Shown here: one piece after another, positions 14,818 through 64,000 of the stretch | Layout: each line of letters opens with the position of its first letter | Position numbering within the stretch: position 1 is the first letter of the stretch | From: an uncultured bacterium | GTDB lineage: Bacteria > Nitrospirota > JACRHL01 | Reading direction: 5' to 3' | Assembly (NCBI GenBank): GCA_965371175.1 | Contig: CBDUXI010000002.1 | Coordinates: 2,694 to 66,693, forward strand | Length of the DNA stretch: 64,000 nucleotides | The notes under the pieces: model-generated | Database searches by the model: none | The model's input: the letters and a program-made list of their open reading frames with translations, nothing else | Told to the model about the DNA's origin: nothing | Translations under genes and position numbers: made by a program

Positions 14818-14882
14818 TTGCTGGACAATGTGGCCCCCAATATTTGTAACAGGGGGCGTTCTGTACCTGTGGAGATAGCGCT

Positions 14883-15644: not shown

Positions 15645-15680
15645 GCGTTGGCCCCGACGGTTTACTGGTGATGAATTCTT

Positions 15681-16529: not shown

Positions 16530-16577
16530 TCTGTCCGGCACTGAGCCAGGACCCGTAAGAGAGAGACCTTCGCGCCC

Positions 16578-17507
16578 ATGGACATCAAGAATGTACTGTT
16601 CGCCATTGCCGGGCTGAGTCTGGCCGTGCTGTTTGGATATCACTCCTACCAGAGTGCCAACCCCGAATGGCATGACTATCAGCGCACCTATTACAAAATT
16701 CTGGCCGAAAAGATGAACGACCCGAAGCTGGCCGGTACGCCGCTCAAGGTCGATCAGGTCTGGTTACCCACGGTGAACAACCGGGCCGACCGCTGTATGA
16801 CCTGTCACAAGGGGGTCGGTAACCCGCTGTTCAAGGACGCACCGCAGCCGTATACCACCCATCCCAAGTTTTTTGGCGAGGATAACAAGGCCTCCGGCTA
16901 CATGCTCAAGCACCCGTTCTCCAAGTTCGGCTGCACCGTCTGTCACGAAGGCGACCCGCAGGCGCTTACGGTGGAAGCCACCCACGGCAACGTCCACCAT
17001 CTGGACCGGGAGTTGCTGACCGGCGTGTTTACCGAATCGTCGTGCAGCAAGTGCCACCAGTCCCTGTTTGCCCGCCGCGCCGACTTGCCCGAAGCGGCCA
17101 CGTTGATGGCCGGCAAGAACCTGTTTAAAAAGAAGGGTTGTGGTGCCTGTCACACGGCCAAGCAGATGCGCACCCGGGGCACGGCGGGGCCGGAGCTTTC
17201 CGGCTTTGGCAGCAAGACCGAGCTGTCGTTTTTTCTGGTGCATAACTTCCACCATGTGGAAGGGGAGCACACCAAACAGCAGTGGGAGTGGGAGCACTTC
17301 AAGGACCCTCAGAAGGTCACGCCGGGCGACCCTCATGCCACCCCGCCTCAGGCCCCCACCATCATGCCGAACTTCCGCCTGTCGGACGCAGAGACCGATC
17401 AGCTCACCACGCTGATGAGCTCGTTCAAGGACGACGCCAAGGAGGCGATTCCCATGAACTTCCTGAGCAGCTACCCGGAAGTGGTGCCCAGGAAGCCAAG
17501 AAAATAG
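16578..17507 (+). CDS. membrane-anchored tetrahaem c-type cytochrome of the bc operon
   Basis: Four CxxCH motifs (CMTCH, CTVCH, CSKCH, CGACH). N-terminal TM anchor. The last domain resembles a class I cytochrome c. Confidence 0.8.
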   Translation: MDIKNVLFAIAGLSLAVLFGYHSYQSANPEWHDYQRTYYKILAEKMNDPKLAGTPLKVDQVWLPTVNNRADRCMTCHKGVGNPLFKDAPQPYTTHPKFFGEDNKASGYMLKHPFSKFGCTVCHEGDPQALTVEATHGNVHHLDRELLTGVFTESSCSKCHQSLFARRADLPEAATLMAGKNLFKKKGCGACHTAKQMRTRGTAGPELSGFGSKTELSFFLVHNFHHVEGEHTKQQWEWEHFKDPQKVTPGDPHATPPQAPTIMPNFRLSDAETDQLTTLMSSFKDDAKEAIPMNFLSSYPEVVPRKPRK

Positions 17508-33448: not shown

Positions 33449-35470
33449 TTACGTCTGGCCGGACGGGATGATGCGGGTCAGGCGGGATAAAAAGCCGGAC
33501 AGTCCCGTTTCGGACTGGGTCTGCTCCGGGGTGTCCCCCTTGTAGACCAGCTCTTCGTCGAACTGAAACTTTTCCATGGTGATGCAGCGGGTGGGGCAGC
33601 GCATGGCGCACAGGCCACAACGGATGCACAGGTGGCTGTCAAACAGCATCACCGCACCTTTTTCCTCGGCCGTGTCGCTGATGCCCGCATGCCCACCCGG
33701 ACCCTGAATGAACTGATCGGGATTGACCCCGAAGAGGGGCTCCGCGCCGCGAGCGTACAGCTCGGAATCGGCCACCTGATCGATGGGGACAAGTTTCAGC
33801 ACCTTTTCCGGGCAGATATCCACGCAGCCGCTGCAGGCGATGCACATTTCTCCGTCCATCACCACGTTGATGTTGCAACGCAGACAGCGGTCGGCCTGCT
33901 CTTTGGCCTCGATTTCCGGGTAGGCAAAGTCCACCAGGGTGGTGCTGAAGTTGCCCGCCTTGTCTTTTCTCATGTCCAGCGGCAGGTGCGGTTCGCCCTG
34001 GCGGGACAGGGTGGTGTAGCGGCGGACCGTTTCGAACTGGGTCATGGGCCGCATCATGGCGTGGGGGTGGGTTTCGATGGTTTTGCCGGAAAGGGTCTGG
34101 TGAATCGAGCGGGCCACCTTGTGGCCGTGGGCCACCGCATCGATAAACAGCCGCGGGCCGGTGGCGATATCGCCGGTGATGTACACGTCTTTGGCCGAGG
34201 TCTGGAACGTGTCCGGATCGCTCTTGATGATGCCCGGCGCCACCTGCTGTACGCGCCTGTCTTCCCCTTTTAAAAAGCCGGTGTCGGCCATCTGGCCGAT
34301 GGCGAGGATCACCTCGTTGGTGGGCCAGACCTTTTCGGACTTGTCCACAAACGACGGGGCGAAGCGGCCCTGCTCGTCGAAGATGGATTTGACCTTTTTA
34401 AACTCGATGCCGATCAGGGTGCCGTCCTTGTCGCGCACGTACTTTTGCGGCCCCAGATCGTTAAAGATGCCGATGCCCTCATAGCGGGATTCGATGCGCT
34501 CGTATTCCGAGCCGCGCATGCCGTCTTCCGGCTCCAGACAGACCACCTGCACCTTGGTTGCACCCTGACGCAGGGCGGTGCGGGCGCAGTCCATGGCCAC
34601 GTCGCCACCACCGATGACGATGACCCGGCCCTTGTGGGGGATCTTTTCGCCAAAATTGCTGCGCCGCAGGTAGTCGATGCCTTCGATGATGCCGTCGCCG
34701 TCGGCTCCCGGAATGGGGATGGCGCGGGCGTTTTGCAGGCCCGTGGCGATGACGATGGCCTTGTACCCGTCGTCGCGCAGTTGCTGGAAGGTGATGTCCT
34801 TGCCGATGTCCACCCCGTACTGCACGTCCACGCCCATGTCGGCAATGGCGTCCACCTCGGCGTACACGGCGCGCCGGTCCAGACGGAATACCGGTACCCC
34901 CTGGGAGAGCATGCCGCCCGCGCCCACTCTGGGCTGTTTTTCAAACACGGTAACCGGGTAGCCGAACAGGTTCAGGTCGTGGGCGCAGCTCATACCGGCC
35001 ACGCCGGAGCCGATGACCGCCACCTTGGGGCCGGTGTTGCGGCTTTTGGCATCCAGCACGCCGGTGGTGCCCATCAGACGCTTGATATTGCTGATATCAA
35101 ACTCGTGGCGGGAGTCGGCGTTGTAAGACCCTTTGAGGACGTCTTCGAGTACCTTGTTCTTCTTGTCGGGGGACTCGGGTCCAAACTGCTCGCACACGAA
35201 GCGTTTTAAGGCCCGAATCGCCACCGGTTTGTCGAGTTTGCCCCGGCGGCAGGCCGCTTCGCACGGTGCGCCGCACACGCGTCCGCAGATGGAGGCAAAC
35301 GGGTTGGGCTCCCGGGCGATGCGATAGGCGTCTTCGTAGCGGCCCTCGCCGATGGCGACAATATAGCCACGGGCATCGGTATGCACCGGGCAGGCGTACT
35401 GGCACTCCACCGTCTCCTGGAAGTGCTCATAATCAAAACTGATAACCGATAACGGATTCGACTGAATCAT
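33449..35470 (-). CDS. GltD-family NAD(P)H-dependent FAD oxidoreductase fused to a 2x[4Fe-4S] ferredoxin domain
   Basis: N-terminal Cys cluster of the GltD type ('CGRVCGAPCEAAC'). Two Rossmann 'GxGxxG' motifs ('VIGSGVAG', 'VIGGGDVAMD'). The C-terminus carries 'CIACSGCVDICP' and 'CIRCGLCAMRCP'. Confidence 0.7.
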   Translation of the reverse strand: MIQSNPLSVISFDYEHFQETVECQYACPVHTDARGYIVAIGEGRYEDAYRIAREPNPFASICGRVCGAPCEAACRRGKLDKPVAIRALKRFVCEQFGPESPDKKNKVLEDVLKGSYNADSRHEFDISNIKRLMGTTGVLDAKSRNTGPKVAVIGSGVAGMSCAHDLNLFGYPVTVFEKQPRVGAGGMLSQGVPVFRLDRRAVYAEVDAIADMGVDVQYGVDIGKDITFQQLRDDGYKAIVIATGLQNARAIPIPGADGDGIIEGIDYLRRSNFGEKIPHKGRVIVIGGGDVAMDCARTALRQGATKVQVVCLEPEDGMRGSEYERIESRYEGIGIFNDLGPQKYVRDKDGTLIGIEFKKVKSIFDEQGRFAPSFVDKSEKVWPTNEVILAIGQMADTGFLKGEDRRVQQVAPGIIKSDPDTFQTSAKDVYITGDIATGPRLFIDAVAHGHKVARSIHQTLSGKTIETHPHAMMRPMTQFETVRRYTTLSRQGEPHLPLDMRKDKAGNFSTTLVDFAYPEIEAKEQADRCLRCNINVVMDGEMCIACSGCVDICPEKVLKLVPIDQVADSELYARGAEPLFGVNPDQFIQGPGGHAGISDTAEEKGAVMLFDSHLCIRCGLCAMRCPTRCITMEKFQFDEELVYKGDTPEQTQSETGLSGFLSRLTRIIPSGQT

Positions 35471-37234: not shown

Positions 37235-37885
37235 TCAGTTGCCAGACGAAAAAGGTAATAAAGCGTGTCTTACCTCGATTTCATGGTTGCCGCTGTTTCG
37301 TTGATGCCAAGTAGTAAAGCGCTGAATAATGCTTACAGGGGCAGTTTTGATCGGGCCTTTTCGTAGCTTTATTTCGGTCTTATTCTTGGAAAGATTGTCA
37401 TGTATTTTTGTGTTGGCATACGGAATATCACCGTCCATCACATAACCAAGCATACACCCAACAGGAAGGCCCTCTGCATACTGCTCCGTAACAAATCTCT
37501 TAACCCCTTCTTTGACGTACTCCGGTGCTCGCGAGCTTCTCTTTCCCTGCGCGTTGAGTACATTGAGGCGTTTGCATTCGTAAGCAAGGTACTTATCATA
37601 ATTTTGGTCCAAAAAAAAAGCAATGTCGATTTTCCCTTTGCTGTAGGCCATGCCTGTCTCAAGGTATCCTGGAGGTTCATATTGATAATCCGACGAATAG
37701 AATACTTTCCGCGCTACTGCATCCTTGCGAAGTTTTTGCACTAAGTTGAACGTAATCTCATCTTCAATCGGCTGAGGTGTAAGAACTGCCAGGCAATCCG
37801 ACCATACGGAAGCGATGCATTCGAGCAGACGAATGTCAAATGATCTGAATCGACTGGTCCATTCCCCCGGATCGCCAACCACCAT
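37235..37885 (-). CDS. PD-(D/E)xK nuclease-like protein (putative restriction endonuclease partner)
   Basis: 'GKIDIAFFLDQNYDKYLAYECKRL' fits the D-x(n)-E-x-K motif. Its start is coupled to the upstream methyltransferase stop (TGATG). Confidence 0.5.
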   Translation of the reverse strand: MVVGDPGEWTSRFRSFDIRLLECIASVWSDCLAVLTPQPIEDEITFNLVQKLRKDAVARKVFYSSDYQYEPPGYLETGMAYSKGKIDIAFFLDQNYDKYLAYECKRLNVLNAQGKRSSRAPEYVKEGVKRFVTEQYAEGLPVGCMLGYVMDGDIPYANTKIHDNLSKNKTEIKLRKGPIKTAPVSIIQRFTTWHQRNSGNHEIEVRHALLPFSSGN

Positions 37886-40800
37886 CAGCTATGCTCCTGC
37901 CATTCACGCAAAGTAGCAGTGCTTTGGAGGTCGAGCGCGATTGCATCGGCGTCGGCCAAGGCGGCAGATCGCAGCCAAAATCGTTTCTGAGTGAGCTTAA
38001 CGACGTATAGGTGCTTTCCGGAGAAAATCCGAAAGTCCGGAATCAGTTGGAAATTTCCGGGTAGAGGCTGATGGATTTCATCGGATATACGGGAAAGTAC
38101 TTTACCAATAGAGAGATTATTTTCTTCAACATAATCGCTCCGTGACTTCGCCCTCTCCCCCAAAGTTAAGCGCAAAATTGCTAAGTCATTGTTTTTCGCT
38201 TCAAGCGCTACCTCGATCGCATACCCATCGTCGAACCAGTCTCTTAAACTGCGAACCAACGTCTTTCCATATGCGCCCCGCTCGTCGCGATTCGCGGGTT
38301 TCCAAATGTCGGGGAACCTGCTTTGACTCGGTTGTGCAGCTGGGATTAACTTCGTGACACCATCTTCAATCAGGATAACTTCATCGGCTGAAAGACAAAA
38401 ATATTCGTATGTAAGGCGGTCGATATTATCCATCAAATCACTGTCGTCACCCCGCAGGACGGAATTTGCTTCTAGGTTTGTGAGAGCTTGGTCTATGACT
38501 TGAACAAGTTCGACGGCCGCGCGTCGCGACTGTTCGGGGTTAGGTGTATCCTCAGGGGAGGGAAACGGCAACCGTAACAACTCTGCCTGTTGTACCACCG
38601 GTCGATCTGATCCAAAGGACGCGGTGCCGTGGAACGCAAACCAGATGGCCAACTTGCTGTTCAGCAGTGCTGCAAGCAACTTCCCTCGGTTTTTTTCACG
38701 CTGCGGGACAGTAATGGCCTGAATAATGTGCCGAAACGTAACAGGGCTTTCTATATAGGCAGCGCGAAGCCGCATTGGATTGGTGCTTATACCACGCGGT
38801 ATGAGGACACGCGGTCCTTGGAAGCCTCGTTCAAATCCTTTTCGACGGACATTCCCATTCTTCCAGGCCCGGAGATCTGAAACGTCTTGGGCAAGCCTCG
38901 TGAATTCTTTAATCGGCAGGAAAGGCGCTGTTGCGACAATGTCGCTGTGGTTTTTGTCCTCGATATTATCGGGGGGCTGATTAACGTTCGATGGTTGAAA
39001 CCCTTGTCCTATTATCCAGCCAGCTTGTCCTACCTGTTCCCTACGACTGAGGTAGCCAAATTCGTTTATAGTTTCGCTCATATTCGGTAGTGTCAGCATG
39101 TAATTAAAGAGCTTCTCATCAGGCCCGCTCATCCAAAGACGGCGCTTGAAGACAAACGGATCCTTTATTGCCATGCTGATATTAATAGAACTCTTGTCAG
39201 CGCTACTGAGCGTGATCAGTCTCTTGATTCGTAAATTCAGATCGGCTTTTGGAACCCAGTAGTCAAAGCAATACTGAGGAGTTCGCGACACCGGTTTTTC
39301 CAAGACAATAAGGGCAGCGGGGCGAACTGCACCTTCAAAAAGTTGAAATCGCAGGTCAGAAAAATTAATGATGCGACGAACGCGAGATTCGGTCATGAGT
39401 CGCTTGCGAGCGGCCACGGTACTTGTCGCGTGATTGTGCAGAAAACCCATAGCCGGTAAAAGAAAAGCAACAATACCGTTGTCACTCATATGGCGAAGCG
39501 ACTTCCACGTAAATGCCCAAGCATCCTCCCTGCTCGGCATTGGCAGCCGTTCTTCGTCGCACCACGATACAGAAGAGCGGTTTTCTCCGCGTCGGCTGGA
39601 CCACGGTGGGTTGCCAATAATGACATTGAACTTGAAGCTGTCTATTGGGACTGTGAAGAAATCCTGACAGCGTAGAGTCTTTCCCCACAATTCCGGGAGC
39701 ATCCTGCCTCTTCTCGCGAGTGTGCGAATTTCTGGTGGGCTGACTTCCTCCAGAAGGGCTATATAAAGTGAGAACACGGCGACGCGAACGGAGCCGCTGT
39801 TCAAATCCCAACCGTGCAGCCGCGAGATGATTGCGAGCAAGCTATCCCAGCGCAACTTCCTAGACTTACGGGACTCCCGCCAATTCTCACATAGGCGTTG
39901 AAATGTTCTCACCAGGAAAACACCGGAACCGCATGCCGGATCAAGAAAAGTGCCCTTCTCTCTCGTTGGGGCGGGAAGAAGGTCCCAGACTTGAGAAATA
40001 ACCGTATCAGCCAGGAACATGGGGGTGTAGTAAGCGCCTTGTTCCCGGCGCTTAGCTTCCTGCTCACCCAGAAACCGATCGTATACAGCGCTGATTAGCT
40101 CAACCGGAATGTATTTGAAGTTGTATCCCCAGAAGCGATATTGAGAACCTTCCCTGGCCATCTCCTCACGACCGGAACGAAAACGTGCGAGAATCCCCAA
40201 CTGACCGCCGGTCAGTTGGGGATGATGGGAACGAGTGTCGAACGAACACGGCGCGACGAAGAGATCACCGTTAAACTCTTTCCTGAGCTTGCTAAACAGG
40301 CGACTCAGCGCGCTGGTGTTTCCCGACTCAAGAAGAGAAGAAAAGCTGTCGGCCGCGCCGCTGGATGCGTCAAGGTAGTGCTGTGCGTCGGTGATGTCTC
40401 GATCTTCCAGATAGGCGATAAACATTGCCTGAATAAGCAATGCTTGAGCGGCGTCGGAAGAAAGGTCTGCTGCGCACAGGAGTCGATGACATTCACTCAG
40501 ATTAGTCAGCAGGACTTGGTCGATCCGCTCTTTCTGGACGAAGTACTCGGAATGTTCAGCCCAAAGACGGCCAGATTCAGCCCCGTAAACGAGCCCTTTG
40601 ATCTCAAGGGCATTGGCTACCGCATTAAGTGTTTCCAGCAAGCAACGATCATCAAATTTCTCATCCAGTCCAATGAAAGGCTTACGCACGAGTGAGAACG
40701 CGCGCACTGTATCTCCGGCGATTACCAGAAGGAGGCTTGCTAACCCTTGATTCCAAAGTGATGCATGAAGATCGATAACGGCTGTCTGGTCATATTCTTC

Positions 40801-41007
40801 CGTGCGAAGAATAGCTATGGTTGGAACACCTTGGACACAGAATACAGCTGACAATCCCAAGTCGCTGAGCGCGGCGCGTAGGGCACCCGCATGCGGTGAC
40901 TCCCTGACTGAAGCTTCTGTTTCAAAAAGCTCCGGCACTCCGCGCTCTGATAGATCAAGTCGATCTTTCCAGACTTCATCAAGCGGAAGCGCTCTTGGCG
41001 CGGTCAT
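37885..41007 (-). CDS. MmeI/PglX-like gamma-class N6-adenine DNA methyltransferase (1040 aa) with N-terminal extension and C-terminal target-recognition region
   Basis: Motif I 'FLDPACGSGVFLV' and motif IV 'IIGNPPW'. Preceded by 'YYTPMFLADTV' and 'YNFKYIPVELISAVYDRFL'. AGGAGAG RBS lies 5 nt upstream of ATG 41007. Confidence 0.75.
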   Translation of the reverse strand: MTAPRALPLDEVWKDRLDLSERGVPELFETEASVRESPHAGALRAALSDLGLSAVFCVQGVPTIAILRTEEYDQTAVIDLHASLWNQGLASLLLVIAGDTVRAFSLVRKPFIGLDEKFDDRCLLETLNAVANALEIKGLVYGAESGRLWAEHSEYFVQKERIDQVLLTNLSECHRLLCAADLSSDAAQALLIQAMFIAYLEDRDITDAQHYLDASSGAADSFSSLLESGNTSALSRLFSKLRKEFNGDLFVAPCSFDTRSHHPQLTGGQLGILARFRSGREEMAREGSQYRFWGYNFKYIPVELISAVYDRFLGEQEAKRREQGAYYTPMFLADTVISQVWDLLPAPTREKGTFLDPACGSGVFLVRTFQRLCENWRESRKSRKLRWDSLLAIISRLHGWDLNSGSVRVAVFSLYIALLEEVSPPEIRTLARRGRMLPELWGKTLRCQDFFTVPIDSFKFNVIIGNPPWSSRRGENRSSVSWCDEERLPMPSREDAWAFTWKSLRHMSDNGIVAFLLPAMGFLHNHATSTVAARKRLMTESRVRRIINFSDLRFQLFEGAVRPAALIVLEKPVSRTPQYCFDYWVPKADLNLRIKRLITLSSADKSSINISMAIKDPFVFKRRLWMSGPDEKLFNYMLTLPNMSETINEFGYLSRREQVGQAGWIIGQGFQPSNVNQPPDNIEDKNHSDIVATAPFLPIKEFTRLAQDVSDLRAWKNGNVRRKGFERGFQGPRVLIPRGISTNPMRLRAAYIESPVTFRHIIQAITVPQREKNRGKLLAALLNSKLAIWFAFHGTASFGSDRPVVQQAELLRLPFPSPEDTPNPEQSRRAAVELVQVIDQALTNLEANSVLRGDDSDLMDNIDRLTYEYFCLSADEVILIEDGVTKLIPAAQPSQSRFPDIWKPANRDERGAYGKTLVRSLRDWFDDGYAIEVALEAKNNDLAILRLTLGERAKSRSDYVEENNLSIGKVLSRISDEIHQPLPGNFQLIPDFRIFSGKHLYVVKLTQKRFWLRSAALADADAIALDLQSTATLREWQEHS

Positions 41008-54343: not shown

Positions 54344-55501
54344 TCAGGTCGGTTGTTGTACCAGTTTCAGCACGCCGCCTTTTTGCCCGGCCCAGATGGC
54401 GTTCCCGGCGGCCTTGATGGTGTAGACATCTTCTCCGATCAGGCCGTCCTTGCGGGTGTAGCGGCTCCAGGCGCTGCCGTCGAAGCGGGAGATGCCGTGA
54501 TTGGTGGCAAACCACATGGCGCCGTCCGCGGTCTGGGTGATGCCGTACACCACGTTGCCGGCCAGGCCGTCCTGGGTGGAGTAGTTGACGAACTCTTTGC
54601 CGTCAAAGCGGGAGATGCCGCCGCCCCAGGTGCCGATCCACAGAAAGCCCGCCGTATCTAATTGCAGCGAAAAAACATAGTTTTCGTTGTAGGTTTCCGC
54701 ACCCTTGCCGTCTTTGGTGGTCAGATTGGTGAGGTCGTGGGAATGGTCGTCGGGCGGCTCTTCGGAGGTGCCGTCGGCGCGGGTGGAGCCAAAGCCGGAC
54801 CGGGGGCTTCTGGACAGCCCGCCGGGGTTTTCGGCGCCCATGCCGTCCTGGTGCAGCCAGGTGGTCCACTGATCGTCTTTTAAACGGGACAGGCCGCCTT
54901 CGGTGCCGAACCAGACGGCCCCTTCCCGGTCGATCTGAATGGCATATACCCACGGGTTAGCCAGTCCGTCTTCGGTGTTGAGGGTGGTCCAGTTGCTACG
55001 CTCGTCCATGTCGCCGCTGATGCGGTTCACCCCGTCCCAGGTGGCCAGCCATACGGTGCCGGGCTGGAACGCCACGTCATAGATCCACAGGTCGGCCAGG
55101 CCGTGCTTGGGCAGGTAGTTGTGCATGGCGTTGTCCCGCCAGACAGACAGCCCGCCGGCGTTGGTGCCCATCCAGATCGCGCCGTCCGGCCCCCGGCGCA
55201 CCACAAAGGCATAATTGTTGCGCATGCCGTCTTTGCGGGTGAAGGTGCGCACCATGTCGCCGCTTGCGCGGTTGATCTCCAGCACGCCGGTGGAGGTGCC
55301 CACGAACAGGCGATCCCCATCCACATGCAGGCTGCGCACGTAGGCGTGGGCGCCCACCTCAAACTTTTCCACCACGGCGTATGTGGGGGCGGCGGGGGCC
55401 ACGGCGCCCGCCGTCGGCTGTTCGGACTTGCTGCACCCAACCGCTGTCATCAGGGTCAGGGCGCAGGCCATAAGCAGGGGCAGGCGGTTATATCGCCGCA
55501 T
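54344..55501 (-). CDS. lipoprotein with two-component-regulator-propeller-type beta-propeller repeats
   Basis: Lipobox 'MTAVGCS'. Repeated 'W.GT..GL...' units. Confidence 0.55.
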   Translation of the reverse strand: MRRYNRLPLLMACALTLMTAVGCSKSEQPTAGAVAPAAPTYAVVEKFEVGAHAYVRSLHVDGDRLFVGTSTGVLEINRASGDMVRTFTRKDGMRNNYAFVVRRGPDGAIWMGTNAGGLSVWRDNAMHNYLPKHGLADLWIYDVAFQPGTVWLATWDGVNRISGDMDERSNWTTLNTEDGLANPWVYAIQIDREGAVWFGTEGGLSRLKDDQWTTWLHQDGMGAENPGGLSRSPRSGFGSTRADGTSEEPPDDHSHDLTNLTTKDGKGAETYNENYVFSLQLDTAGFLWIGTWGGGISRFDGKEFVNYSTQDGLAGNVVYGITQTADGAMWFATNHGISRFDGSAWSRYTRKDGLIGEDVYTIKAAGNAIWAGQKGGVLKLVQQPT

Positions 55502-55516
55502 GGTCGGGGTTCCCGG

Positions 55517-56014
55517 TTATTTGGGTTTGGAGTGGCAGCGGGCGCAGTCGTACAGCGGAAACGCCACCTTGCCGTGACAGCGGCCGCAGAATTCGCCCTC
55601 GACGATCTTCTGCATGGTCACGTTGTTGCTGCCCGCCTGCATCTTGAAGATGCTCGGGTGGCAGTTGCGGCAGTCCAGCCATTGGGTGTGGGGCAGGTGG
55701 GGGTAGACCACGTCCGGCAGGTCGCCCTTGACCTCAAACACCACGTCGAAGTCGATGGACTTCATTTCCACCTCGCCCTCGGTGATGGAGGCAAACGGGG
55801 TAATGGTGCCGTCTTGCAGGGCCTTCACCCAGTCGACATACCCCAGCGGCGCCTTGGGCATGAACTCGAAGGCGATGGGCTGATCCCCCTCTTCGGGCGG
55901 GATGGGTATGTTGAACTCCGGTACCGGTTCCACCGCCTTGGCGGTACAGCCCGCCAGGATCAGCACGAGAAACACCGCGCCAAAAATACGTCCTGTGTGC
56001 CACCCGGTTGTCAT
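55517..56014 (-). CDS. lipoprotein with C-terminal c7-like trihaem c-type cytochrome domain
   Basis: Lipobox 'LILAGCT'. Three CxxCH motifs (CRNCH, CGRCH, CARCH) within the last roughly 55 aa. Confidence 0.7.
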   Translation of the reverse strand: MTTGWHTGRIFGAVFLVLILAGCTAKAVEPVPEFNIPIPPEEGDQPIAFEFMPKAPLGYVDWVKALQDGTITPFASITEGEVEMKSIDFDVVFEVKGDLPDVVYPHLPHTQWLDCRNCHPSIFKMQAGSNNVTMQKIVEGEFCGRCHGKVAFPLYDCARCHSKPK

Positions 56015-56577
56015 CGGGGCAGGACCACCACCCGGCCGGTCATCCGGTTATGGATAAAGCAGAAGTACGGGAATGTTCCCGGCGTATTAAAGGTGTGTGA
56101 GATTTCCCCTGCCACCAGCAGGTCCACCGGCTCGATCTCCATGGCTCCGGACGAGTCGGAGCCGGGGATGGTGGCAAACAGGTGCACGATGCCGCTGTGG
56201 TTTTTCCAGACCACGGTATCGCCCGCATAAATGGTCAGCTCCCGCGGCACGAACACATAGGCCCCTTCGGGCGCCAGCACCTCGTAGGTTTCTACCTGTA
56301 AGGGCGCGGGGGGCGCGGTCAGCGGGGTTTCGTCTTCAAAGGTAATCGGCTCTCTGGGCGGCAGCGGCGGCGCCGGCTCCGGGGTGGGCGCGACCGGTGC
56401 GGATACATCGGGCATGGGTTCGGGCGCGGCCGCCGGGGCCGTCTCTTCCTGCACCGGGGGCGGTGTCATCGGCTCGACCGGGGCGTCCCGCTTCCATTTA
56501 AAACTACACCCGCTGAGCAGCAACGTGACCACAACGGGCAGGCTCCAGAGCACAGATTTACGTATAGACCGCATCAT
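56011..56577 (-). CDS. cupredoxin (type-1 blue copper protein) lipoprotein with Pro-rich linker
   Basis: Lipobox 'LLLSGCS'. Copper ligands in 'GIVH...PYFCFIHNRMTG' (His, Cys, His, Met spacing). ATGA overlap with the downstream cytochrome gene. Confidence 0.7.
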   Translation of the reverse strand: MMRSIRKSVLWSLPVVVTLLLSGCSFKWKRDAPVEPMTPPPVQEETAPAAAPEPMPDVSAPVAPTPEPAPPLPPREPITFEDETPLTAPPAPLQVETYEVLAPEGAYVFVPRELTIYAGDTVVWKNHSGIVHLFATIPGSDSSGAMEIEPVDLLVAGEISHTFNTPGTFPYFCFIHNRMTGRVVVLPR

Positions 56578-59632: not shown

Positions 59633-61219
59633 CTATTTTTTGCCGGCGGGGCGCTCCAGAATGACGCCCGCATCCCCCCGGACGGTCACGCTCCCGTAGG
59701 GGTGCACCTCCACCTTCCACAACGGCTGACCGGTCACACCGGAAAGCTCCGTTGCCGTCTCCCCTTCAATCCGTACAATCCGGCCGAAGTCGCCCACCGC
59801 CCAGGCGGTATTGGGGGTGGTGGGGTCGTCCGCCACGGAAAACAGGGAAAACCCACCGGTTTTAATCGTTTTCCAGCCTGCTCCGTCCCAGCGGAATATA
59901 CCGCCGCCCCGGCCCACGCCGACACCGCTCGCTGACAGGGCGGAAAGGGTTTCGCCCGTGGGTAACGGGGTTGGGCTTGGCAGCCCGTCCGGGTTGGGTG
60001 GGGGAGGCGCCATGGACGGCAGGAATCGAGCCTTCGCGATCGGCCCGTCATCACCCACCGCCCACGCGGGCTTGCCGCCGGGGTACGACCACATTTGTGG
60101 CGGCGCGATCAGCCCGTCATCACCCACCACCCACACGGACCTACCGCCGGGGTCCGACCATCCGCCCCGCCGGGTCAGCCGGTCCAGTATCGGCAGGGCG
60201 GTCCATGAATTGCCATCGAAGTGGGTCATCACGCCCTCGTCGCCGGTGATCCATATATCGTCCGGCCCCGTGCCCCATATCCACCTGAGCAGGCCGTTTA
60301 TCTGTGTGTCCACCGTTTGCCACCGGCTGCCGTCGTAGTGGAGCAGGTTGTGGTAGACGTCGGCATTTTTGGCGCGGGTGTCGGGCAGAATACCGGCCAC
60401 GTACACATCCTCCTTGCCGGTGCCCCACACGCTGACGAAATGGCCAAGTTTTTGTCCGGGAAAGCCCGTATCCACCTGGGACCACGTTTTCCCATCGTAA
60501 TGGGCGATATTGCCGCGCCCGCCTACCGCCCACACATCTTGCGGGCCGGTGCCCCATACGCCGAAAAACAGGTTTTCCGTGCCGCTCTCCTGGCGTTTGA
60601 AGCAGGATCCGTCCCAGTGAAAAATCACCCCCCGATCGCCCACGGTAAACACATCTTTGGGTCCGGACCCCCATATGCCGTTGAAATCGTTGGAAACGCC
60701 GGTGGGGTGGTCCCACCATTTTTTGCCGTCAAAGCGCAGTACCCGGCCGTTGTAGCCGGTGATCCACACGTCTTTTCTGGAAGACCCCCACACCCCGGCC
60801 AGATAGTCGGCGATGCCGGTATGGACGAGGTCCCACTTGTTGCCGTCAAAGTGCACGATGCGGCCTGCATCCCCCGCCGCCCAGACGTTTTTGGGGCCGC
60901 TGCCCCAGACGCCCAGCAGGTTGTCTCCCTGGGGCAGGGGCTGGAGCCAGCGGAAAGACGGCGCCATTGCCGGGGGCAGTTTTTTCGGTGGTGCCGCGCA
61001 CACTCCGACGGGCACGGTGGTGGGGGGCGCGGCCATTTTTCCCAACTGGTCCCGCCAGTCCTCTTCGGCCAGGGCGGTTCCGGCCAGCGCGATTCCGGAA
61101 AGAACGATAAAAAAGGCGATGACGGTCCACGTACAAAAAGGGTGGGCGCGTCGGTATGGAGTCGGGTGCGTCATGGTGTGGGCCGGGTGCTTTCGGGTCG
61201 ATTCATTCATTGTAAGCAT
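59633..61219 (-). CDS. Ycf48/BNR-like beta-propeller repeat protein with N-terminal signal/TM
   Basis: About 10 repeats of 'VWGSGP.DVWAVGD.G.I.HYDG..W'. Hydrophobic N-terminus. Confidence 0.5.
   Translation of the reverse strand: MLTMNESTRKHPAHTMTHPTPYRRAHPFCTWTVIAFFIVLSGIALAGTALAEEDWRDQLGKMAAPPTTVPVGVCAAPPKKLPPAMAPSFRWLQPLPQGDNLLGVWGSGPKNVWAAGDAGRIVHFDGNKWDLVHTGIADYLAGVWGSSRKDVWITGYNGRVLRFDGKKWWDHPTGVSNDFNGIWGSGPKDVFTVGDRGVIFHWDGSCFKRQESGTENLFFGVWGTGPQDVWAVGGRGNIAHYDGKTWSQVDTGFPGQKLGHFVSVWGTGKEDVYVAGILPDTRAKNADVYHNLLHYDGSRWQTVDTQINGLLRWIWGTGPDDIWITGDEGVMTHFDGNSWTALPILDRLTRRGGWSDPGGRSVWVVGDDGLIAPPQMWSYPGGKPAWAVGDDGPIAKARFLPSMAPPPPNPDGLPSPTPLPTGETLSALSASGVGVGRGGGIFRWDGAGWKTIKTGGFSLFSVADDPTTPNTAWAVGDFGRIVRIEGETATELSGVTGQPLWKVEVHPYGSVTVRGDAGVILERPAGKK
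60041..60178 (-). repeat. two tandem 69-nt near-identical copies inside the propeller CDS
   Basis: 'cggcccgtcatcacccaccgcccacgcgggcttgccgccggggtacgacca' vs 'cagcccgtcatcacccaccacccacacggacctaccgccggggtccgacca', read directly. Encodes duplicated W.VGDDG.IA blades. Confidence 0.7.
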
Positions 61220-61330: not shown

Positions 61331-61687
61331 ATGCGCTTTCAATCCGGACTGTTTGTTTGTTTGTTCACGGGTCTGCTGCTGTGGGCAGCGGCTCCGGCCT
61401 TTGCCGGTCCCAATGCCAAGATGTTGATCGAGCGCAAGGGCTGCCTGACCTGCCATAGCTTAAACGGCAAGGGCGGCAAGATGGGGCCGCCGATGCAAAG
61501 CATCGTATCGTGGAGCGATGCTGCGCGCATGACCAAGTATATTACCGATCCCAAAAGCGTGAACCCCGGATCCATCATGCCCAAGCCCCGCCTGAAAGAG
61601 GCGGAAATTGCCGCCATCGTGGAGTACTTGATGTCGTTCAAGGACACGGCTGTTGCGCCCAAATGGTGGAAACCGGAGAAAAAGTGA
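61331..61687 (+). CDS. monohaem class I cytochrome c (signal peptide)
   Basis: Signal 'LLWAAAPAFA'. 'CLTCH' haem site. Distal Met in 'GSIMPKP'. Confidence 0.8.
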   Translation: MRFQSGLFVCLFTGLLLWAAAPAFAGPNAKMLIERKGCLTCHSLNGKGGKMGPPMQSIVSWSDAARMTKYITDPKSVNPGSIMPKPRLKEAEIAAIVEYLMSFKDTAVAPKWWKPEKK

Positions 61688-62160
61688 CCGGAGAGCCACT
61701 TCCTGAAGCGACGGGGGGGGACCTGTCCGACGCCACCCGGCGCAAGTTCATGCACCGGATGCTCAACATGAGCATGGGGCTGTGGGTCTCCGCCGCCACC
61801 CTGGGCACGGGGTATGTGGCCGGGCGCTACATGTGGCCCCACCCGGAAGGCACCAGCACCGGCGGCGAACGCTCGGTGTCGTTTGCGCTGGCCGATCTGG
61901 ACAATCAACCGATGGTGCGGGTGCTGGTAGAAGGCGCCCCCGTGGGCGTGTTCCGCTATGAAGGGGCGATATACGCCCTGGGGCTGGTGTGTACCCATCT
62001 GGGTTGCCTGGTCAACCGGGAGCCGGATACCGACAACATGGCCTGCCCGTGCCACGCGTCGCGTTTCGATCGCAACGGCGGCGTGATTTCCGGGCCCGCG
62101 CCCGCGCCGTTAAAGCGCTACGACGTGCGCGTGTCGGGCGATACGGTGCTGGTCAGTTGA
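61684..62160 (+). CDS. Rieske 2Fe-2S subunit (Tat signal) of a second bc-type complex
   Basis: GTG start overlapping the previous stop (GTGA). Tat 'TRRKFM'. 'CTHLGC' and 'CPCHAS'. Confidence 0.8.
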   Translation: MTGEPLPEATGGDLSDATRRKFMHRMLNMSMGLWVSAATLGTGYVAGRYMWPHPEGTSTGGERSVSFALADLDNQPMVRVLVEGAPVGVFRYEGAIYALGLVCTHLGCLVNREPDTDNMACPCHASRFDRNGGVISGPAPAPLKRYDVRVSGDTVLVS

Positions 62161-62894
62161 GCTGGTTCAAAAAAAAGAAACCGGGGTCGGATGCGGCCCT
62201 GAGAGGCGAAGGCGCCCGCGCCGTCCTGAACATTGTTTCCCTGTTTACCGGTGCCCTGTACGGTGAACTGGACGAGCGGCTGGATTTTCGCACCGCCCTT
62301 TCCCGCGCGCTCAAAAAGCCGGTGCCGCCCCATGTGAACCTGTGGTTCTGCTTTGGCGGCATCACCTTCCTGATTTTCATGATTCAGGTGGTCACCGGGG
62401 TGGGGCTGTTGCTCTATTACCGGCCCACGGTGGAGCAGGCCTACCTGTCGGTGGTGCACATCACCAACGACGTGCCGTTTGGCTGGCTGGTGCGCGGCTT
62501 TCACCACTGGAGCGCCAACCTGATCATGATCACGGTGATGATCCACGCCATGCGGGTGTTCTTTCACGGCGCCTACAAGGCCCCTCGGGATTTCAACTGG
62601 GTGGTGGGCGTCTGCCTCATGTTCGGGCTGCTGGTATTCGGTTTTTCCGGCTATCTGTTGCCGTGGAACGAACTGTCGTACTGGGCCACGGTGGTGGGGG
62701 CCGAAATCCCCGGCGCCATCCCGTATGTGGGCGAATATATCGTCTATTTTCTGAAAGGGGGCGATATGGTCGGGCAACTGGCGCTGACCCGCTTCTTCGC
62801 CTTCCACGTGGTGCTCATGCCGCTGGTCATGATGGTGCTGTTGGGGATGCACTTTCTGATGGTGCGGCGGCTGGGCATTTCGGGCCCGTTGTAG
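62157..62894 (+). CDS. cytochrome b6-type subunit of a second bc-type complex
   Basis: TTG start overlapping the Rieske stop. 'HHWSANLIMITVMIHAMRVFFHGAYK' and 'RFFAFHVVLMP'. About 60% identity by eye to 14883..15644. Confidence 0.8.
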   Translation: MSWFKKKKPGSDAALRGEGARAVLNIVSLFTGALYGELDERLDFRTALSRALKKPVPPHVNLWFCFGGITFLIFMIQVVTGVGLLLYYRPTVEQAYLSVVHITNDVPFGWLVRGFHHWSANLIMITVMIHAMRVFFHGAYKAPRDFNWVVGVCLMFGLLVFGFSGYLLPWNELSYWATVVGAEIPGAIPYVGEYIVYFLKGGDMVGQLALTRFFAFHVVLMPLVMMVLLGMHFLMVRRLGISGPL

Positions 62895-62903
62895 GTTGAT
62901 GCC

Positions 62904-63680
62904 GTGGGTATCCTGACAGTCGGCGACATCATGAGCCACGATCCGGCCTCGGTGCCGCCGTCCTGCACCTTGCGTGACGCAGCCCGGTTGATGCGCAGAT
63001 TGCGCATCCGCAGCCTGCTGGTCAAGCATGAGGAGGCGTTCGTCGGCATCATCACCGGCACCGATCTGGCTGGCCAGGTGCTGTCCGATGCCCCCATCGA
63101 TACGCTGACCGTGGGCGACATCATGAGCTTTCCGATGCTCACCATCGATGCCCGTGAGCCGCTACGCCGGGCAAACTCCGCAATGCTCGAGCACCATGTA
63201 CGTCACTTGGTGGTGACCGACGGCGACGAGCCGGTGGGGGTCATCTCGGCCCGGGACCTGCTGGACCCGGAGGAAGACGTGCCGGGCGCCATCCCGTTCT
63301 GGCCCCACCACCTGCTCAAGGAAGTGGCCGCCGCCCTGCTGGTCATGGCGCTGCTGGCCGTGCTGGTGGTGGTCAGCCCCGCGCCCATGCTGGATCAGGC
63401 CGACCCGTTCTCCACCCCGGCCCACATCAAGCCGGAGTGGTACTTTCTGGCGGCCTACCAGTTTTTAAAATTCGCCGAGTACTTTCGTCCACTAGGGGCG
63501 TGGGCGCCCAAGGGGCTGGGCGTGGGCATCATGGGTCTGGTGATGCTGGTGCTGGTATTTCTGCCGTTTCTGGACCGCAACCCGGAGCGGGCGCCGAAAA
63601 CCAGATCGTTTGCCATGGCGGTGGGGGTGTTCGGGGTGCTGGCGTTTGTCGGCTTTACCGTATGGGGGCATTTCAGTTGA
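62904..63680 (+). CDS. CBS-domain pair fused to cytochrome bc subunit IV (PetD-like)
   Basis: The N-terminal roughly 135 aa has two CBS-like units ('VGDIMSHDPASV...', 'VGDIMSFPMLTID...HHVRHLVVTDGDEPVGVISARDLL'). The C-terminus has 'PFSTPAHIKPEWYFLAAYQFLKF' plus three TM helices. One continuous ORF. Confidence 0.7.
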   Translation: MGILTVGDIMSHDPASVPPSCTLRDAARLMRRLRIRSLLVKHEEAFVGIITGTDLAGQVLSDAPIDTLTVGDIMSFPMLTIDAREPLRRANSAMLEHHVRHLVVTDGDEPVGVISARDLLDPEEDVPGAIPFWPHHLLKEVAAALLVMALLAVLVVVSPAPMLDQADPFSTPAHIKPEWYFLAAYQFLKFAEYFRPLGAWAPKGLGVGIMGLVMLVLVFLPFLDRNPERAPKTRSFAMAVGVFGVLAFVGFTVWGHFS

Positions 63681-64000
63681 GCGCCCGTCCGCTCCGGCCG
63701 GGTTTCGTGTTGATCCGGCTGGCCGTTTTTATGCTCCTGTTTATGGCCGCACCGGCGCTTGCCGGGGTGGAAGAGGGCGCACGCATATACGGGGAAAAAG
63801 GGTGTAGCAACTGCCACCTGCTTGATGGCGAAGGCAACAGCGTGGGGCCGGAGCTTTCCGCGGAAGGGACAAAGGCCGACCGGGACCGGGACTGGCACGT
63901 GCGCCACCTGCTGGACCCCGCCGCCGTGGTGCCCGGCTCCATCATGCCGATGATGGTGACCGAGGCGGAAGCTGCACATCTGGCCGACTATCTGTTGAGC
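63677..64000 (+). CDS. monohaem cytochrome c (partial, runs off window end)
   Basis: TTG start overlapping the previous stop (TTGA). Signal peptide 'LLFMAAPALAG'. 'CSNCH'. Distal Met in 'GSIMPMM'. Confidence 0.65.
   Translation, partial: MSARPLRPGFVLIRLAVFMLLFMAAPALAGVEEGARIYGEKGCSNCHLLDGEGNSVGPELSAEGTKADRDRDWHVRHLLDPAAVVPGSIMPMMVTEAEAAHLADYLLS

What the first reader, a model, noticed from the sequence alone, without database searches (positions are those of the whole stretch)
62904..63680. CBS-domain pair fused in frame to the subunit-IV (PetD-like) protein of a cytochrome bc/b6f-type complex
The N-terminal roughly 135 aa reads as a Bateman (tandem CBS) module. The C-terminus is unmistakably the cytochrome b C-terminal subunit (PEWYF box plus three helices). 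The ORF is continuous with no stop or frameshift. It sits in a tightly coupled operon cytc - Rieske - cyt b - [CBS-SUIV] - cytc with overlapping start and stop codons at 61684, 62157 and 63677. CBS pairs in other proteins bind adenylates or SAM and gate channels and enzymes. A quinol:cytochrome c oxidoreductase with a built-in nucleotide sensor would be an unusual regulatory arrangement. I am not aware of a described example; this is stated from memory only.
Basis: partly seen in the sequence, partly recalled or inferred. Interest (0 to 1): 0.8.

Follow-up and report, generated by a model that had tools for sequence, protein, structure and literature searches.

The report
Cytochrome b6-complex subunit IV with built-in CBS sensor
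One subunit of a respiratory quinol:cytochrome c complex carries a conserved cytoplasmic CBS module, the kind of domain that senses ATP/AMP in other proteins; this suggests, without proving, that the complex is regulated directly by the cell's energy state.

Summary
ORF 62904-63680 (+, GTG, 258 aa) carries two Pfam CBS domains (E 1.4e-25) followed by the PetD/subunit-IV part of cytochrome b (PF00032, E 7e-18; KPEWYF box, three TM helices). It sits in a tightly coupled operon: cyt c, Rieske, cyt b6, CBS-SUIV, cyt c.

The fusion is not an assembly artefact. 53 protein clusters (46-100% identity, 258-265 aa) from independent NCBI, JGI, ENA and Logan assemblies have the same architecture. All named sources are Nitrospirota MAGs. 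dN/dS is 0.19 over the CBS half. Both ribose-phosphate motifs (GIxTxxD, SARD), an RH pair and the linker IPFWPxHxLKE are invariant.

The family is narrow. It has one whole-length representative among 1.84 billion 50%-identity clusters and was found in at least 12 of 185,579 species genomes. The 68 nearest unfused loci have no CBS gene nearby. In one subclade the Rieske-b6 operon lacks subunit IV and the CBS-SUIV gene lies elsewhere, so the fused protein appears to be the working subunit IV.

Homology to b6f places the CBS pair on the cytoplasmic (n) side. I found no description in the searchable literature. Nucleotide sensing is inferred, not shown. Verdict: a new variant of a known kind.

The parts
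61331..61687 (+). Monohaem cytochrome c (118 aa), first gene of the operon
   Evidence: Pfam Cytochrom_C, E 1.2e-9. The same gene occupies the same position in L001 and L010-L014.
61684..62160 (+). Rieske [2Fe-2S] subunit (158 aa). Its GTG start overlaps the cyt c stop (GTGA).
   Evidence: Pfam Rieske, E 1.8e-15. Its best NCBIfam hits are the b6f iron-sulfur subunit models (PetC), below their cut-offs. The L001 orthologue is also 158 aa.
62157..62894 (+). Cytochrome b6-type subunit (245 aa, four helices A-D). Its TTG start overlaps the Rieske stop. Cys65 lies in 'WFCFGG' at 62349-62351.
   Evidence: Pfam Cytochrome_B, E 4e-57. It aligns end to end with chloroplast cyt b6 1q90_B (226 bits). The four haem-ligand His and the Cys35 equivalent (the haem ci attachment site) are kept, and it ends in GISGPL as b6 does.
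62904..63680 (+). CBS-SUIV fusion gene (258 aa plus stop), the finding itself
   Evidence: 53 homologous clusters have the same two-domain architecture.
62904..63278 (+). Bateman module (residues 1-125): CBS1 at about residues 6-57 and CBS2 at about residues 69-121. The invariant residues are G48/I49/T51/D54 (63045-63065), R100/H101/L102/V103 (63201-63212) and S115/A116/R117/D118 (63246-63257).
   Evidence: Pfam CBS, two stretches. The AF2 model shows the beta-alpha-beta-beta-alpha repeat twice, pLDDT 75-89. Foldseek best hits are 2yzi, 5awe, 2ef7, CBS-CP12 and AcuB solved with AMP, ADP or ATP. Invariant columns come from the 33-sequence alignment A1. dN/dS is 0.19.
63279..63323 (+). Linker and pre-helix segment (residues 126-140, VPGAIPFWPHHLLKE), where homology to unfused subunit IV begins
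   Evidence: P131, F132, P134, H136, L138, K139 and E140 are invariant in the fusions. Unfused relatives start only 12-20 residues before the same motif. b6f SUIV residue 30 aligns to residue 131.
63306..63677 (+). Subunit-IV membrane part. Helix E is residues 135-157, the ef loop carries the Qo motif P177-E-W-Y180 (63432-63443), helix F is residues 201-223, the cytoplasmic fg loop is DRNPERAPKTR, and helix G is residues 235-257.
   Evidence: Pfam PF00032. PDB matches to cyt b and b6f subunit 4. AF2 helices. Hydropathy and charge: 4 K/R in the 11-residue fg loop.
63677..64000 (+). FixO-like monohaem cytochrome c, cut off by the end of the window. Its TTG start overlaps the CBS-SUIV stop.
   Evidence: Pfam FixO, E 4.5e-10, and Cytochrom_C. 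In the syntenic locus L001 it is 121 aa and is followed by a 476-aa multi-domain cyt c and a 113-aa ORF.

Best explanation
The gene encodes the genuine subunit IV (helices E-G, carrying the PEWY part of the quinol-oxidation site) of a b6f-type Rieske/cytochrome b6 quinol:cytochrome c oxidoreductase. The short cytoplasmic N-terminal tail of ordinary subunit IV is replaced here by a Bateman module, that is, a CBS pair.

Shown:
- the architecture;
- its conservation under purifying selection in a narrow Nitrospirota lineage;
- intact ribose-phosphate binding motifs in both CBS repeats;
- operon membership.

Inferred from homology with solved b6f structures: the module lies on the cytoplasmic (n) side, just before helix E. 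That is the face of the complex that holds the quinone-reduction site and haem ci.

Inferred mechanism:
- The module binds an adenine-containing ligand, most likely AMP, ADP or ATP. NAD(H), SAM and c-di-AMP are not excluded.
- As in other CBS-regulated membrane proteins, the two modules of the obligate dimer probably pair with each other.
- Ligand-dependent closing or opening of the pair would then be passed through the rigid, invariant linker IPFWPxHxLKE to helix E and the n-side surface.
- This would tune turnover of the Q cycle to the cell's energy state. If the complex runs in reverse, it could instead tune the balance between downhill and uphill electron flow.

The organism has a second, CBS-less Rieske/cyt b complex, so only one of two paralogous complexes would be under this control.
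For: - Domain calls are far above Pfam thresholds.
- 53 clusters at 46-100% identity from four independent data sources share the architecture and length.
- G48, I49, T51, D54, R100, H101, S115, A116, R117, D118 and the linker motif are invariant across 33 sequences that are only 36-43% identical in the CBS half between the window and the clade B loci.
- dN/dS is 0.19 for the CBS half and 0.16 for the SUIV half against the closest relative.
- The CBS pair is modelled with pLDDT 75-89. It superposes on nucleotide-binding CBS pairs such as AcuB (solved with AMP, ADP, ATP), CBS-CP12 and CBSX2-AMP.
- The partner cyt b6 keeps all four haem His and the haem-ci Cys.
- In six loci representing four further clade A species-level genomes (L001 and L011 are the same contig), plus L015 and L093, the gene follows Rieske-b6 directly.
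- In clade B it is unlinked. There the cyt c-Rieske-b6 operons (L090-L092), which come from the same sample series as clade B loci L007 and L008, have no subunit IV of their own. The PEWY-bearing fused protein is therefore needed.
- The fg loop is K/R rich, as expected if the N-terminus is cytoplasmic.
- A second Rieske/cyt b cluster without CBS lies at 14251-17507.
Against: - No ligand binding, complex assembly or regulation has been tested. The organisms are uncultured MAGs.
- Motif conservation shows constraint but does not identify the ligand. Some CBS pairs bind nothing, and some act as protein-protein or dimerisation modules.
- The AF2 monomer gives no reliable orientation of the CBS pair relative to the membrane part (pTM 0.45, linker pLDDT below 50).
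- A multimer model could not be run.
- Pairing of the two modules across the dimer axis rests on my recollection of b6f geometry, not on a computation.
- That the orphan b6 operons and the clade B CBS-SUIV genes share a genome is inferred from shared sample series, not demonstrated.
Confidence: 0.55

Rival explanations
1. The CBS pair is a structural or docking module rather than a metabolite sensor. It would stabilise the dimer, or recruit a cytoplasmic partner to the n-side face near haem ci. Candidate partners include an NAD(P)-linked oxidoreductase, a hemerythrin or a thioredoxin-like protein. This would be analogous to the extra subunits of the anammox Rieske/cyt b complexes, or to the way plant CBSX proteins act on thioredoxins.
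For: In L093 the Rieske-b6-CBS_SUIV genes are followed by two multihaem cytochromes. After those comes an NfnAB/SudAB-like pair (272 aa NAD_binding_1/DHODB_Fe-S_bind; 468 aa Fer4_20/Pyr_redox_2), with a hemerythrin nearby. A hemerythrin gene directly follows the orphan b6 in L090-L092. CBS pairs commonly form dimers (established knowledge).
Against: These partner genes are not conserved across the family. The window and the L001 type of operon carry only c-type cytochromes. Both ribose-phosphate motifs and the RH pair are invariant, which a pure scaffold would not need. Docking and ligand sensing are also not mutually exclusive.
Confidence: 0.2
2. The module senses something other than energy charge. 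The candidates are c-di-AMP, as for the CBS domains of OpuCA, DarB/CbpB and MgtE, or ionic strength/Mg2+, as in OpuA and MgtE. This would tie respiration to osmotic or cell-envelope signalling.
For: In L090 the subunit-IV-less cyt c-Rieske-b6 operon starts 20 nt downstream of cdaA-cdaR(ybbR)-glmM, the c-di-AMP synthase operon, on the same strand. c-di-AMP-binding CBS pairs are well documented (established knowledge).
Against: The cdaA linkage is seen in only one lineage, next to the b6 operon and not next to the CBS-SUIV gene. It is absent from the window, where the upstream neighbour is a divergent 528-aa ORF and isc genes. Nothing in the sequence discriminates c-di-AMP from mononucleotides.
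Confidence: 0.12
3. The fusion is not functional as such. It could be an assembly or frameshift artefact. Alternatively the gene could yield a free subunit IV from an internal start (GTG at V126, 63279-63281, preceded by GGAGGA), or the whole cyt b6-CBS-SUIV could be made by read-through of the in-frame TAG at 62892.
For: A Shine-Dalgarno-like GGAGGA lies 4 nt upstream of the GTG codon of V126. The cyt b6 stop codon and the CBS-SUIV start are in the same frame, 12 nt apart.
Against: 53 independent clusters show the same uninterrupted ORF. The V126 codon is GTT in L001, and clade B has no Val there; the GGAGGA is simply the Pro-Glu-Glu codons. In L001, L010 and L013 the b6 and CBS-SUIV genes are in different frames with 10-29 nt gaps, so read-through is not conserved. 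The CBS half is under purifying selection.
Confidence: 0.03

Closest known systems
Subunit IV (PetD) of cyanobacterial and chloroplast cytochrome b6f, with its partner cytochrome b6 (PDB 1q90, 1vf5, 7r0w)
   Same: The cytochrome b is split into b6 (four helices) and SUIV (three helices). The partner b6 scores 226 bits against 1q90_B, with the four His and the haem-ci Cys kept. SUIV aligns from residue 131 to b6f SUIV residue 30 onward and has the PEWY box. From memory: in algae the stromal face of SUIV and b6 also has a regulatory role, in activating the Stt7 kinase. A 2023 bioRxiv preprint listed (10.1101/2023.08.08.552398) has a title and abstract on this theme; I did not read it.
   Different: PetD has only a roughly 30-residue N-terminal tail and no CBS domain. 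The score against the PetD equivalog model TIGR01156 is 44 bits against a cut-off of 127. This is a non-photosynthetic Nitrospirota complex with c-type cytochromes. The small subunits PetG, L, M and N were not examined.
Unfused subunit IV of the Rieske-b6-SUIV operons of Schekmanbacteria, Thermodesulfobacteriota, Nitrospinota and other Nitrospirota (for example P0054, P0057; loci L022-L089)
   Same: These are the nearest sequence relatives of the SUIV half (50-62% identity). They share the IPFFPxHxLKE and PEWY motifs and the gene order Rieske-b6-SUIV.
   Different: They are 142-155 aa long, with only 12-20 residues before the conserved motif. No CBS homologue was found within the up-to-8 kb flanks held for the 68 loci (tblastn, E below 1e-5).
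CBS/Bateman-regulated membrane proteins (MgtE, ClC channels, CNNM/CorC, OpuA/OpuC) and soluble energy sensors (AMPK gamma, IMPDH, AcuB, CBS-CP12)
   Same: A cytoplasmic CBS pair with canonical G-h-h-S/T-x-x-D motifs is attached to a dimeric protein. The closest solved folds are nucleotide-binding CBS pairs. This is what the system most plausibly works like.
   Different: None of these is a redox-driven, energy-converting complex. Here the CBS pair is N-terminal to a three-helix subunit of a Q-cycle enzyme. The ligand and its effect are untested.
Other domain fusions and extra subunits in Rieske/cyt b complexes: Bacillus QcrC (SUIV fused C-terminally to cytochrome c) and the anammox R/b complexes with NAD(P) oxidoreductase and multihaem subunits (PMC12954380, from its abstract as listed; the rest from memory)
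   Same: They show that subunit IV tolerates fusions and that bc complexes acquire lineage-specific modules. L093 carries NfnAB-like genes reminiscent of the anammox clusters.
   Different: The known fusions add redox cofactors on the periplasmic side, or catalytic partners. This one adds a cofactor-less, sensor-type domain on the cytoplasmic side.

Membership tests
Cytochrome b C-terminal part / subunit IV (Pfam PF00032) | Score above the Pfam gathering threshold | tested here: met
   65.2 bits against a cut-off of 20.7, residues 165-255.
Cytochrome b C-terminal part / subunit IV (Pfam PF00032) | PEWY Qo-site motif in the ef loop | tested here: met
   K176-P-E-W-Y-F181 at 63429-63446. P177, E178, W179 and F181 are invariant in 33 fusions; Y180 is Y in the window but F or V in some clade B members.
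Cytochrome b C-terminal part / subunit IV (Pfam PF00032) | Three transmembrane helices (E, F, G) with the N-terminus on the n side | tested here: met
   Hydrophobic segments at 135-166, 199-226 and 233-258, and a K/R-rich fg loop. AF2 helices. The sidedness itself is inferred from homology to solved b6f.
Cytochrome b C-terminal part / subunit IV (Pfam PF00032) | Encoded with, and needed by, a Rieske protein and a four-helix cytochrome b6 | tested here: met
   Operon in the window. The same order is seen in clade A loci, L015 and L093. Orphan b6 operons without any SUIV occur in the clade B sample series.
Cytochrome b C-terminal part / subunit IV (Pfam PF00032) | Physically assembled in the complex | not testable with these tools
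   Needs proteomics or a structure.
Cyanobacterial/plastid PetD (NCBIfam TIGR01156 equivalog) | Score above the equivalog cut-off | tested here: not met
   44.1 bits against a cut-off of 127. It is a homologue, not a PetD orthologue.
CBS pair / Bateman module (Pfam PF00571 x2) | Two tandem CBS repeats above threshold | tested here: met
   89.8 bits against a cut-off of 24, two stretches.
CBS pair / Bateman module (Pfam PF00571 x2) | The beta-alpha-beta-beta-alpha fold, twice, packed as a pair | tested here: met
   AF2 secondary structure with pLDDT 75-89. Foldseek target-normalised TM 0.8-0.87 and rmsd of about 2 A to 2yzi, 1pbj, 3kpc and 2rc3.
CBS pair / Bateman module (Pfam PF00571 x2) | Ribose-phosphate binding motif G-h-h-S/T-x-x-D/N in each repeat | tested here: met
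   G48-I-I-T51-G-T-D54 and G112-V-I-S115-A-R-D118. T51, D54, S115, R117 and D118 are invariant in 33 sequences. That this motif defines the binding site is recalled from the CBS literature.
CBS pair / Bateman module (Pfam PF00571 x2) | Binds an adenosine-containing ligand and transmits a conformational change | not testable with these tools
   Needs ITC or DSF, and activity assays.
b6f-type (three-haem) Rieske/cyt b complex | Split b6 plus SUIV, four His haem ligands, and a conserved Cys for covalent haem ci | tested here: met
   Alignment to 1q90_B: the His equivalents of H86, H100, H187 and H202, and Cys65 (WFCFGG) aligned to the haem ci cysteine (Cys35) of b6. Presence of haem ci itself is not testable here.
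Anammox-type Rieske/cyt b complex with an NAD(P) oxidoreductase subunit | FAD/NAD-binding and multihaem or HAO-like subunits encoded in the cluster | tested here: not met
   The window operon and its syntenic locus L001 encode only c-type cytochromes downstream. An NfnAB-like pair is present only in the distant relative L093.

The most novel reading that the evidence does not exclude
This would be the first Q-cycle enzyme gated directly by a cytoplasmic metabolite. A pair of Bateman modules under the quinone-reduction/haem ci face of a b6f-type complex would read adenylate charge (or NAD(H) or c-di-AMP). It would then throttle or redirect electron flow through one of two paralogous Rieske/cyt b complexes. 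In a lithotrophic Nitrospirota this could set the split between energy-yielding downhill flow and pmf-consuming uphill flow towards NAD(P)H.
Probability: 0.35. Interest if true: 0.85.

Novelty: new variant of a known kind. Interest (0 to 1): 0.66.

Why it matters
From memory, cytochrome bc1 and b6f complexes are usually described as controlled by substrate redox state and membrane potential, not by bound cytoplasmic metabolites. A conserved sensor domain built into a core catalytic subunit would be direct allosteric control of the Q cycle. It sits on the side where quinone is reduced and, in b6f, where cyclic flow and kinase signalling are thought to engage.

The hypothesis is directly testable. 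The isolated 125-residue module can be assayed for ligands, and the fusion could be grafted onto a tractable b6-type complex.

It also flags a little-known Nitrospirota lineage with at least two Rieske/cyt b complexes. This raises the question of how such organisms partition forward and reverse electron transport.

Tried and rejected
- Exact look-up of the window's own protein (P0001) found no contig on record, so syntenic relatives were used instead.
- The whole-library profile search was swamped by multi-CBS proteins. It shows only one whole-length representative (P0052), but a very distant independent fusion scoring below about 145 bits would not be listed.
- The Foldseek afdb50 library was unavailable.
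No multimer prediction is offered.
- The internal-start hypothesis (GGAGGA plus GTG at V126) was rejected. The codon is GTT in L001, and the Val is absent in clade B.
- The conserved read-through hypothesis (TAG in frame) was rejected. The frames and gaps differ in L001, L010 and L013.
- A search for an evolutionary intermediate, a free CBS gene beside SUIV, found none in 68 unfused loci.
- Eight literature searches and two paper look-ups found no description.
- PDB entries 9znf, 9zng and 9zni ('CBS domain-containing protein') could not be identified further.
The window's own genome was not among the hits.
Full report
**1. The observation**

The window has a continuous ORF at 62904-63680 on the + strand, with a GTG start and 258 codons.

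Pfam scores it with two CBS repeats (PF00571, 89.8 bits against a gathering score of 24, E 1.4e-25; best stretch residues 6-57). It also scores the C-terminal/PetD part of cytochrome b (PF00032, 65.2 bits against 20.7, E 7.1e-18; residues 165-255). NCBIfam agrees in kind. Its best hits are the b6f subunit IV model (44 bits, below its equivalog cut-off of 127) and many CBS-containing enzymes.

The Qo-site motif KPEWYF is at 63429-63446. Hydropathy gives three membrane segments (135-166, 199-226, 233-258). The loop between the last two is DRNPERAPKTR, with 4 K/R in 11 residues.

- cyt c 61331-61687;
- Rieske from GTG 61684, overlapping the cyt c stop (GTGA);
- cyt b6 from TTG 62157, overlapping the Rieske stop (TTGA);
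- the fusion gene;
- a FixO-like cyt c from TTG 63677, overlapping the fusion's stop and cut by the window end.

The only correction is that b6 and the fusion gene do not overlap. The b6 stop TAG is at 62892-62894, followed by 9 nt and then GTG.

**2. Not an artefact**

A search of 5.8 billion clustered proteins returned 53 clusters with both PF00571 and PF00032. All are 258-265 aa (two are truncated), 46-100% identical to the query over 97-100% of its length. They come from NCBI, JGI, ENA and Logan assemblies. Where a name exists it is only 'CBS domain-containing protein', from Nitrospirota, Nitrospirae or Leptospirillia MAGs.

In a 33-sequence alignment (A1) the junction is among the best conserved parts. 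I130 is nearly invariant; P131, F132, P134, H136, L138, K139 and E140 are invariant.

Against the closest relative with DNA (L094, 85% aa identity), dN/dS is 0.19 for codons 2-125 and 0.16 for codons 126-258. The CBS half is therefore under purifying selection almost as strong as that on the catalytic half.

**3. Anatomy of the CBS half**

AF2 run on alignment A1 models residues 1-120 with pLDDT 75-89, as two beta-alpha-beta-beta-alpha units. The linker (122-137) and the ef loop are poorly defined, and pTM is 0.45. The relative placement of the two halves is therefore not informative.

Foldseek against the PDB returns only CBS pairs. The hits include 2yzi, 5awe, 2ef7, 1pbj, 2rc3, 3kpc (solved with SAM/MTA), CBS-CP12, CBSX2-AMP, and AcuB solved with AMP, ADP, ATP or Ap4A. 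Target-normalised TM scores are 0.8-0.87 for the small ones.

Both repeats keep the motif known from the CBS literature as the ribose-phosphate site, G-h-h-S/T-x-x-D. CBS1 has G48-I-I-T51-G-T-D54 and CBS2 has G112-V-I-S115-A-R117-D118. T51, D54, S115, R117 and D118, plus the basic pair R100-H101 on the second strand of CBS2, are invariant across clades. Those clades share only 36-43% identity in this half. This is what one expects of a ligand-binding Bateman module rather than a decaying one. It does not identify the ligand.

**4. The partner and the type of complex**

The upstream cytochrome b (245 aa) aligns end to end with chloroplast cytochrome b6 (1q90_B, 226 bits). It ends in GISGPL exactly as b6 does. 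It keeps the four haem-ligand histidines and the cysteine (Cys65, WFCFGG, 62349-62351) that carries haem ci in b6f. The complex is therefore of the split, b6f-like type.

The subunit-IV half aligns from residue 131 to residue 30 of b6f subunit IV. Unfused relatives start only 12-20 residues before the same IPF(F/W)PxHxLKE motif. The CBS pair thus replaces the short N-terminal tail. In the solved b6f structures that tail lies on the stromal/cytoplasmic (n) side (established knowledge). The K/R-rich fg loop agrees with this. The module would therefore sit on the face that holds the quinone-reduction site and haem ci.

**5. Distribution and origin**

A scan of one genome for each of 185,579 species found the full-length fusion in 12 genomes (L010-L021), all Nitrospirota MAGs.

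The next 68 loci come from Schekmanbacteria, Thermodesulfobacteriota, Nitrospinota, other Nitrospirota, Geobacterales and other groups. They carry Rieske-b6-SUIV with an unfused SUIV, and tblastn finds no CBS homologue in their flanks.

A profile search of 1.84 billion 50%-identity representatives returned a single representative that matches over the whole length (P0052). Every other listed hit is a multi-CBS protein, an unfused SUIV, or P0161 (see section 9). The fusion therefore looks like one event in one lineage. No intermediate was seen.

**6. Three genomic arrangements**

(a) Clade A, 66-100% identity, including the window. The order is cyt c, Rieske, b6, CBS-SUIV, FixO-like cyt c. In L001 this is followed by a 476-aa multi-domain cyt c and a 113-aa ORF. 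The isc genes and a large unknown ORF lie upstream, as in the window.

(b) L015 and L093. The order is Rieske, b6, CBS-SUIV, a multihaem cyt c of about 435 aa, then a c554-like cyt c. In L093 an NfnAB/SudAB-like pair and a hemerythrin follow.

(c) Clade B, 46-52% identity. The CBS-SUIV gene lies after tig-clpP-clpX. It is followed by a FixO-like cyt c and two U32-peptidase genes plus an SCP2 gene, with no Rieske or b6 nearby.

The cyt b6 homologues at 63-72% identity include P0304. Its contigs carry cyt c, Rieske, b6 and hemerythrin, with no subunit IV at all. Those contigs come from the same sample series as clade B loci L007 and L008. Because the PEWY loop is indispensable for quinol oxidation, the simplest reading is that the unlinked CBS-SUIV is the working subunit IV of that complex. 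Co-residence in one genome is inferred, not shown.

**7. Mechanism**

Shown: a conserved, selected, canonical-looking Bateman module is covalently attached to helix E of a b6f-type complex.

Inferred: the module is cytoplasmic, it binds an adenine-containing ligand, and it acts allosterically. By analogy with MgtE, ClC, CNNM/CorC, OpuA and IMPDH, the two modules of the obligate dimer would pair. Their ligand-dependent rearrangement would be passed through the invariant linker to helix E and the n-side surface.

I rate the identity (a genuine subunit IV with a functional Bateman module) at about 0.9 or higher. I rate the regulatory, adenylate-sensing reading at about 0.5. The combined statement gets 0.55.

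Rivals:
- a docking or structural role (0.2);
- a different signal such as c-di-AMP or ionic strength (0.12), supported only by the cdaA-cdaR-glmM operon lying 20 nt upstream of the orphan b6 operon in L090;
- non-functional or alternative products (0.03).

The internal GTG at V126 with an upstream GGAGGA is not conserved: the codon is GTT in L001 and there is no Val in clade B. The in-frame TAG between b6 and the fusion is not conserved in frame or spacing.

**8. A second complex in the same window**

tblastn and Pfam reveal another cluster:
- Rieske 14251-14817;
- cytochrome b 14883-15644 (39% identical to the b6 at 62157; Cys kept in MCLGG);
- a long SUIV-like protein 15681-16529 (282 aa, 'APWYF' in place of PEWY, no Pfam hit);
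- a multihaem cyt c 16578-17507.

It has no CBS domain. The organism thus has at least two paralogous Rieske/cyt b complexes, and only one carries the module. That fits a regulatory specialisation. From memory, it recalls iron oxidisers that use separate bc complexes for downhill and uphill flow. The physiology of this organism is not known from the window. The neighbours of the CBS operon include a cupredoxin, a c7-like cytochrome and propeller proteins.

**9. Novelty**

Eight full-text searches that combined CBS or Bateman with cytochrome b, bc, b6f, petD, complex III and Nitrospirota terms found nothing on such a fusion. The 2017 phylogenomic survey of bc complexes (PMC5600118) does not contain 'CBS'. 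The Manganitrophaceae comparative genomics paper does not either (PMC9040806).

The library is limited to open-access papers, so absence is not proof. The sequences have been public since at least the Rifle MAGs, with only automatic names. I class it as a new variant of a known kind: a b6f-type complex with a built-in sensor domain.

One oddity: P0161 (188 aa) joins a clade A CBS pair to helix D of cyt b6, at a 'PGAIP' motif that occurs in both genes. It is most likely a chimeric contig.

**10. Verdict**

The interest is real but rests on an untested function. Interest score 0.66.

Noticed in passing
window 14251-17507 (+): A second Rieske/cyt b cluster with no CBS domain. It comprises Rieske (188 aa), cytochrome b N-type (253 aa, 39% identical to the b6 at 62157, Cys kept in MCLGG) and a 282-aa SUIV-like protein. 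That protein has 'APWYF' instead of PEWY and no Pfam hit. A 309-aa multihaem cytochrome c follows.
   Followed up: partly
L004 10910-14227; L006 10668-13734; L007 7403-10346: In clade B the unlinked CBS-SUIV gene is followed by a FixO-like cyt c, two Peptidase_U32 genes and an SCP2 gene. From memory, this trio resembles UbiU/UbiV/UbiT of O2-independent quinone hydroxylation. If so, subunit IV would be linked to quinone biosynthesis.
   Followed up: no
L090 4175-9381; also L091, L092: A cyt c-Rieske-b6 operon without any subunit IV. It lies 20 nt downstream of cdaA (diadenylate cyclase)-ybbR-glmM and is followed by a hemerythrin gene. A hemerythrin is also near the operon in L093.
   Followed up: partly
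L093 3631-7837: Rieske-b6-CBS_SUIV is followed by two multihaem cytochromes and an NfnAB/SudAB-like pair (NAD_binding_1/DHODB_Fe-S_bind, then Fer4_20/Pyr_redox_2). This is reminiscent of the anammox Rieske/cyt b clusters proposed to make NAD(P)H.
   Followed up: no
P0161 (188 aa): A clade A CBS pair joined directly to helix D and the C-terminus of cyt b6, at a 'PGAIP' motif that occurs in both genes. In the window the motif is at 62706-62722 and 63281-63300, sharing GGCGCCATCCCGT. It is probably a chimeric contig, less likely a recombinant.
   Followed up: partly
window 54344-56577 (-) and 59633-61219 (-): Near the CBS operon lie a cupredoxin (188 aa), a cytochrome c7-like protein (165 aa) and a Reg_prop propeller protein (385 aa). 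Directly upstream and divergent is a 528-aa ORF with WG-rich repeats and no Pfam hit. The arrangement is conserved in L001. It may be a periplasmic electron-transfer module.
   Followed up: no
window 37235-41007 (-): A 1040-aa MmeI/Eco57I-type restriction-modification methylase and the adjacent 216-aa ORF have GC3 of 0.46-0.52. Most genes in the window have about 0.75. This is probably a horizontally acquired island.
   Followed up: no
window 62892-62906: The cyt b6 stop codon TAG is in the same reading frame as the CBS-SUIV start, 12 nt downstream. Read-through would recreate a single long cytochrome b with a CBS insertion in the de loop. The frame relation is not conserved in L001, L010 or L013, so it is probably coincidence.
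   Followed up: yes
window 33449-35470 (-): A 673-aa Fer4_20 + Pyr_redox_2 + 4Fe-4S ferredoxin-domain oxidoreductase, related to GltD/NfnB. Its function here is unknown.
   Followed up: no
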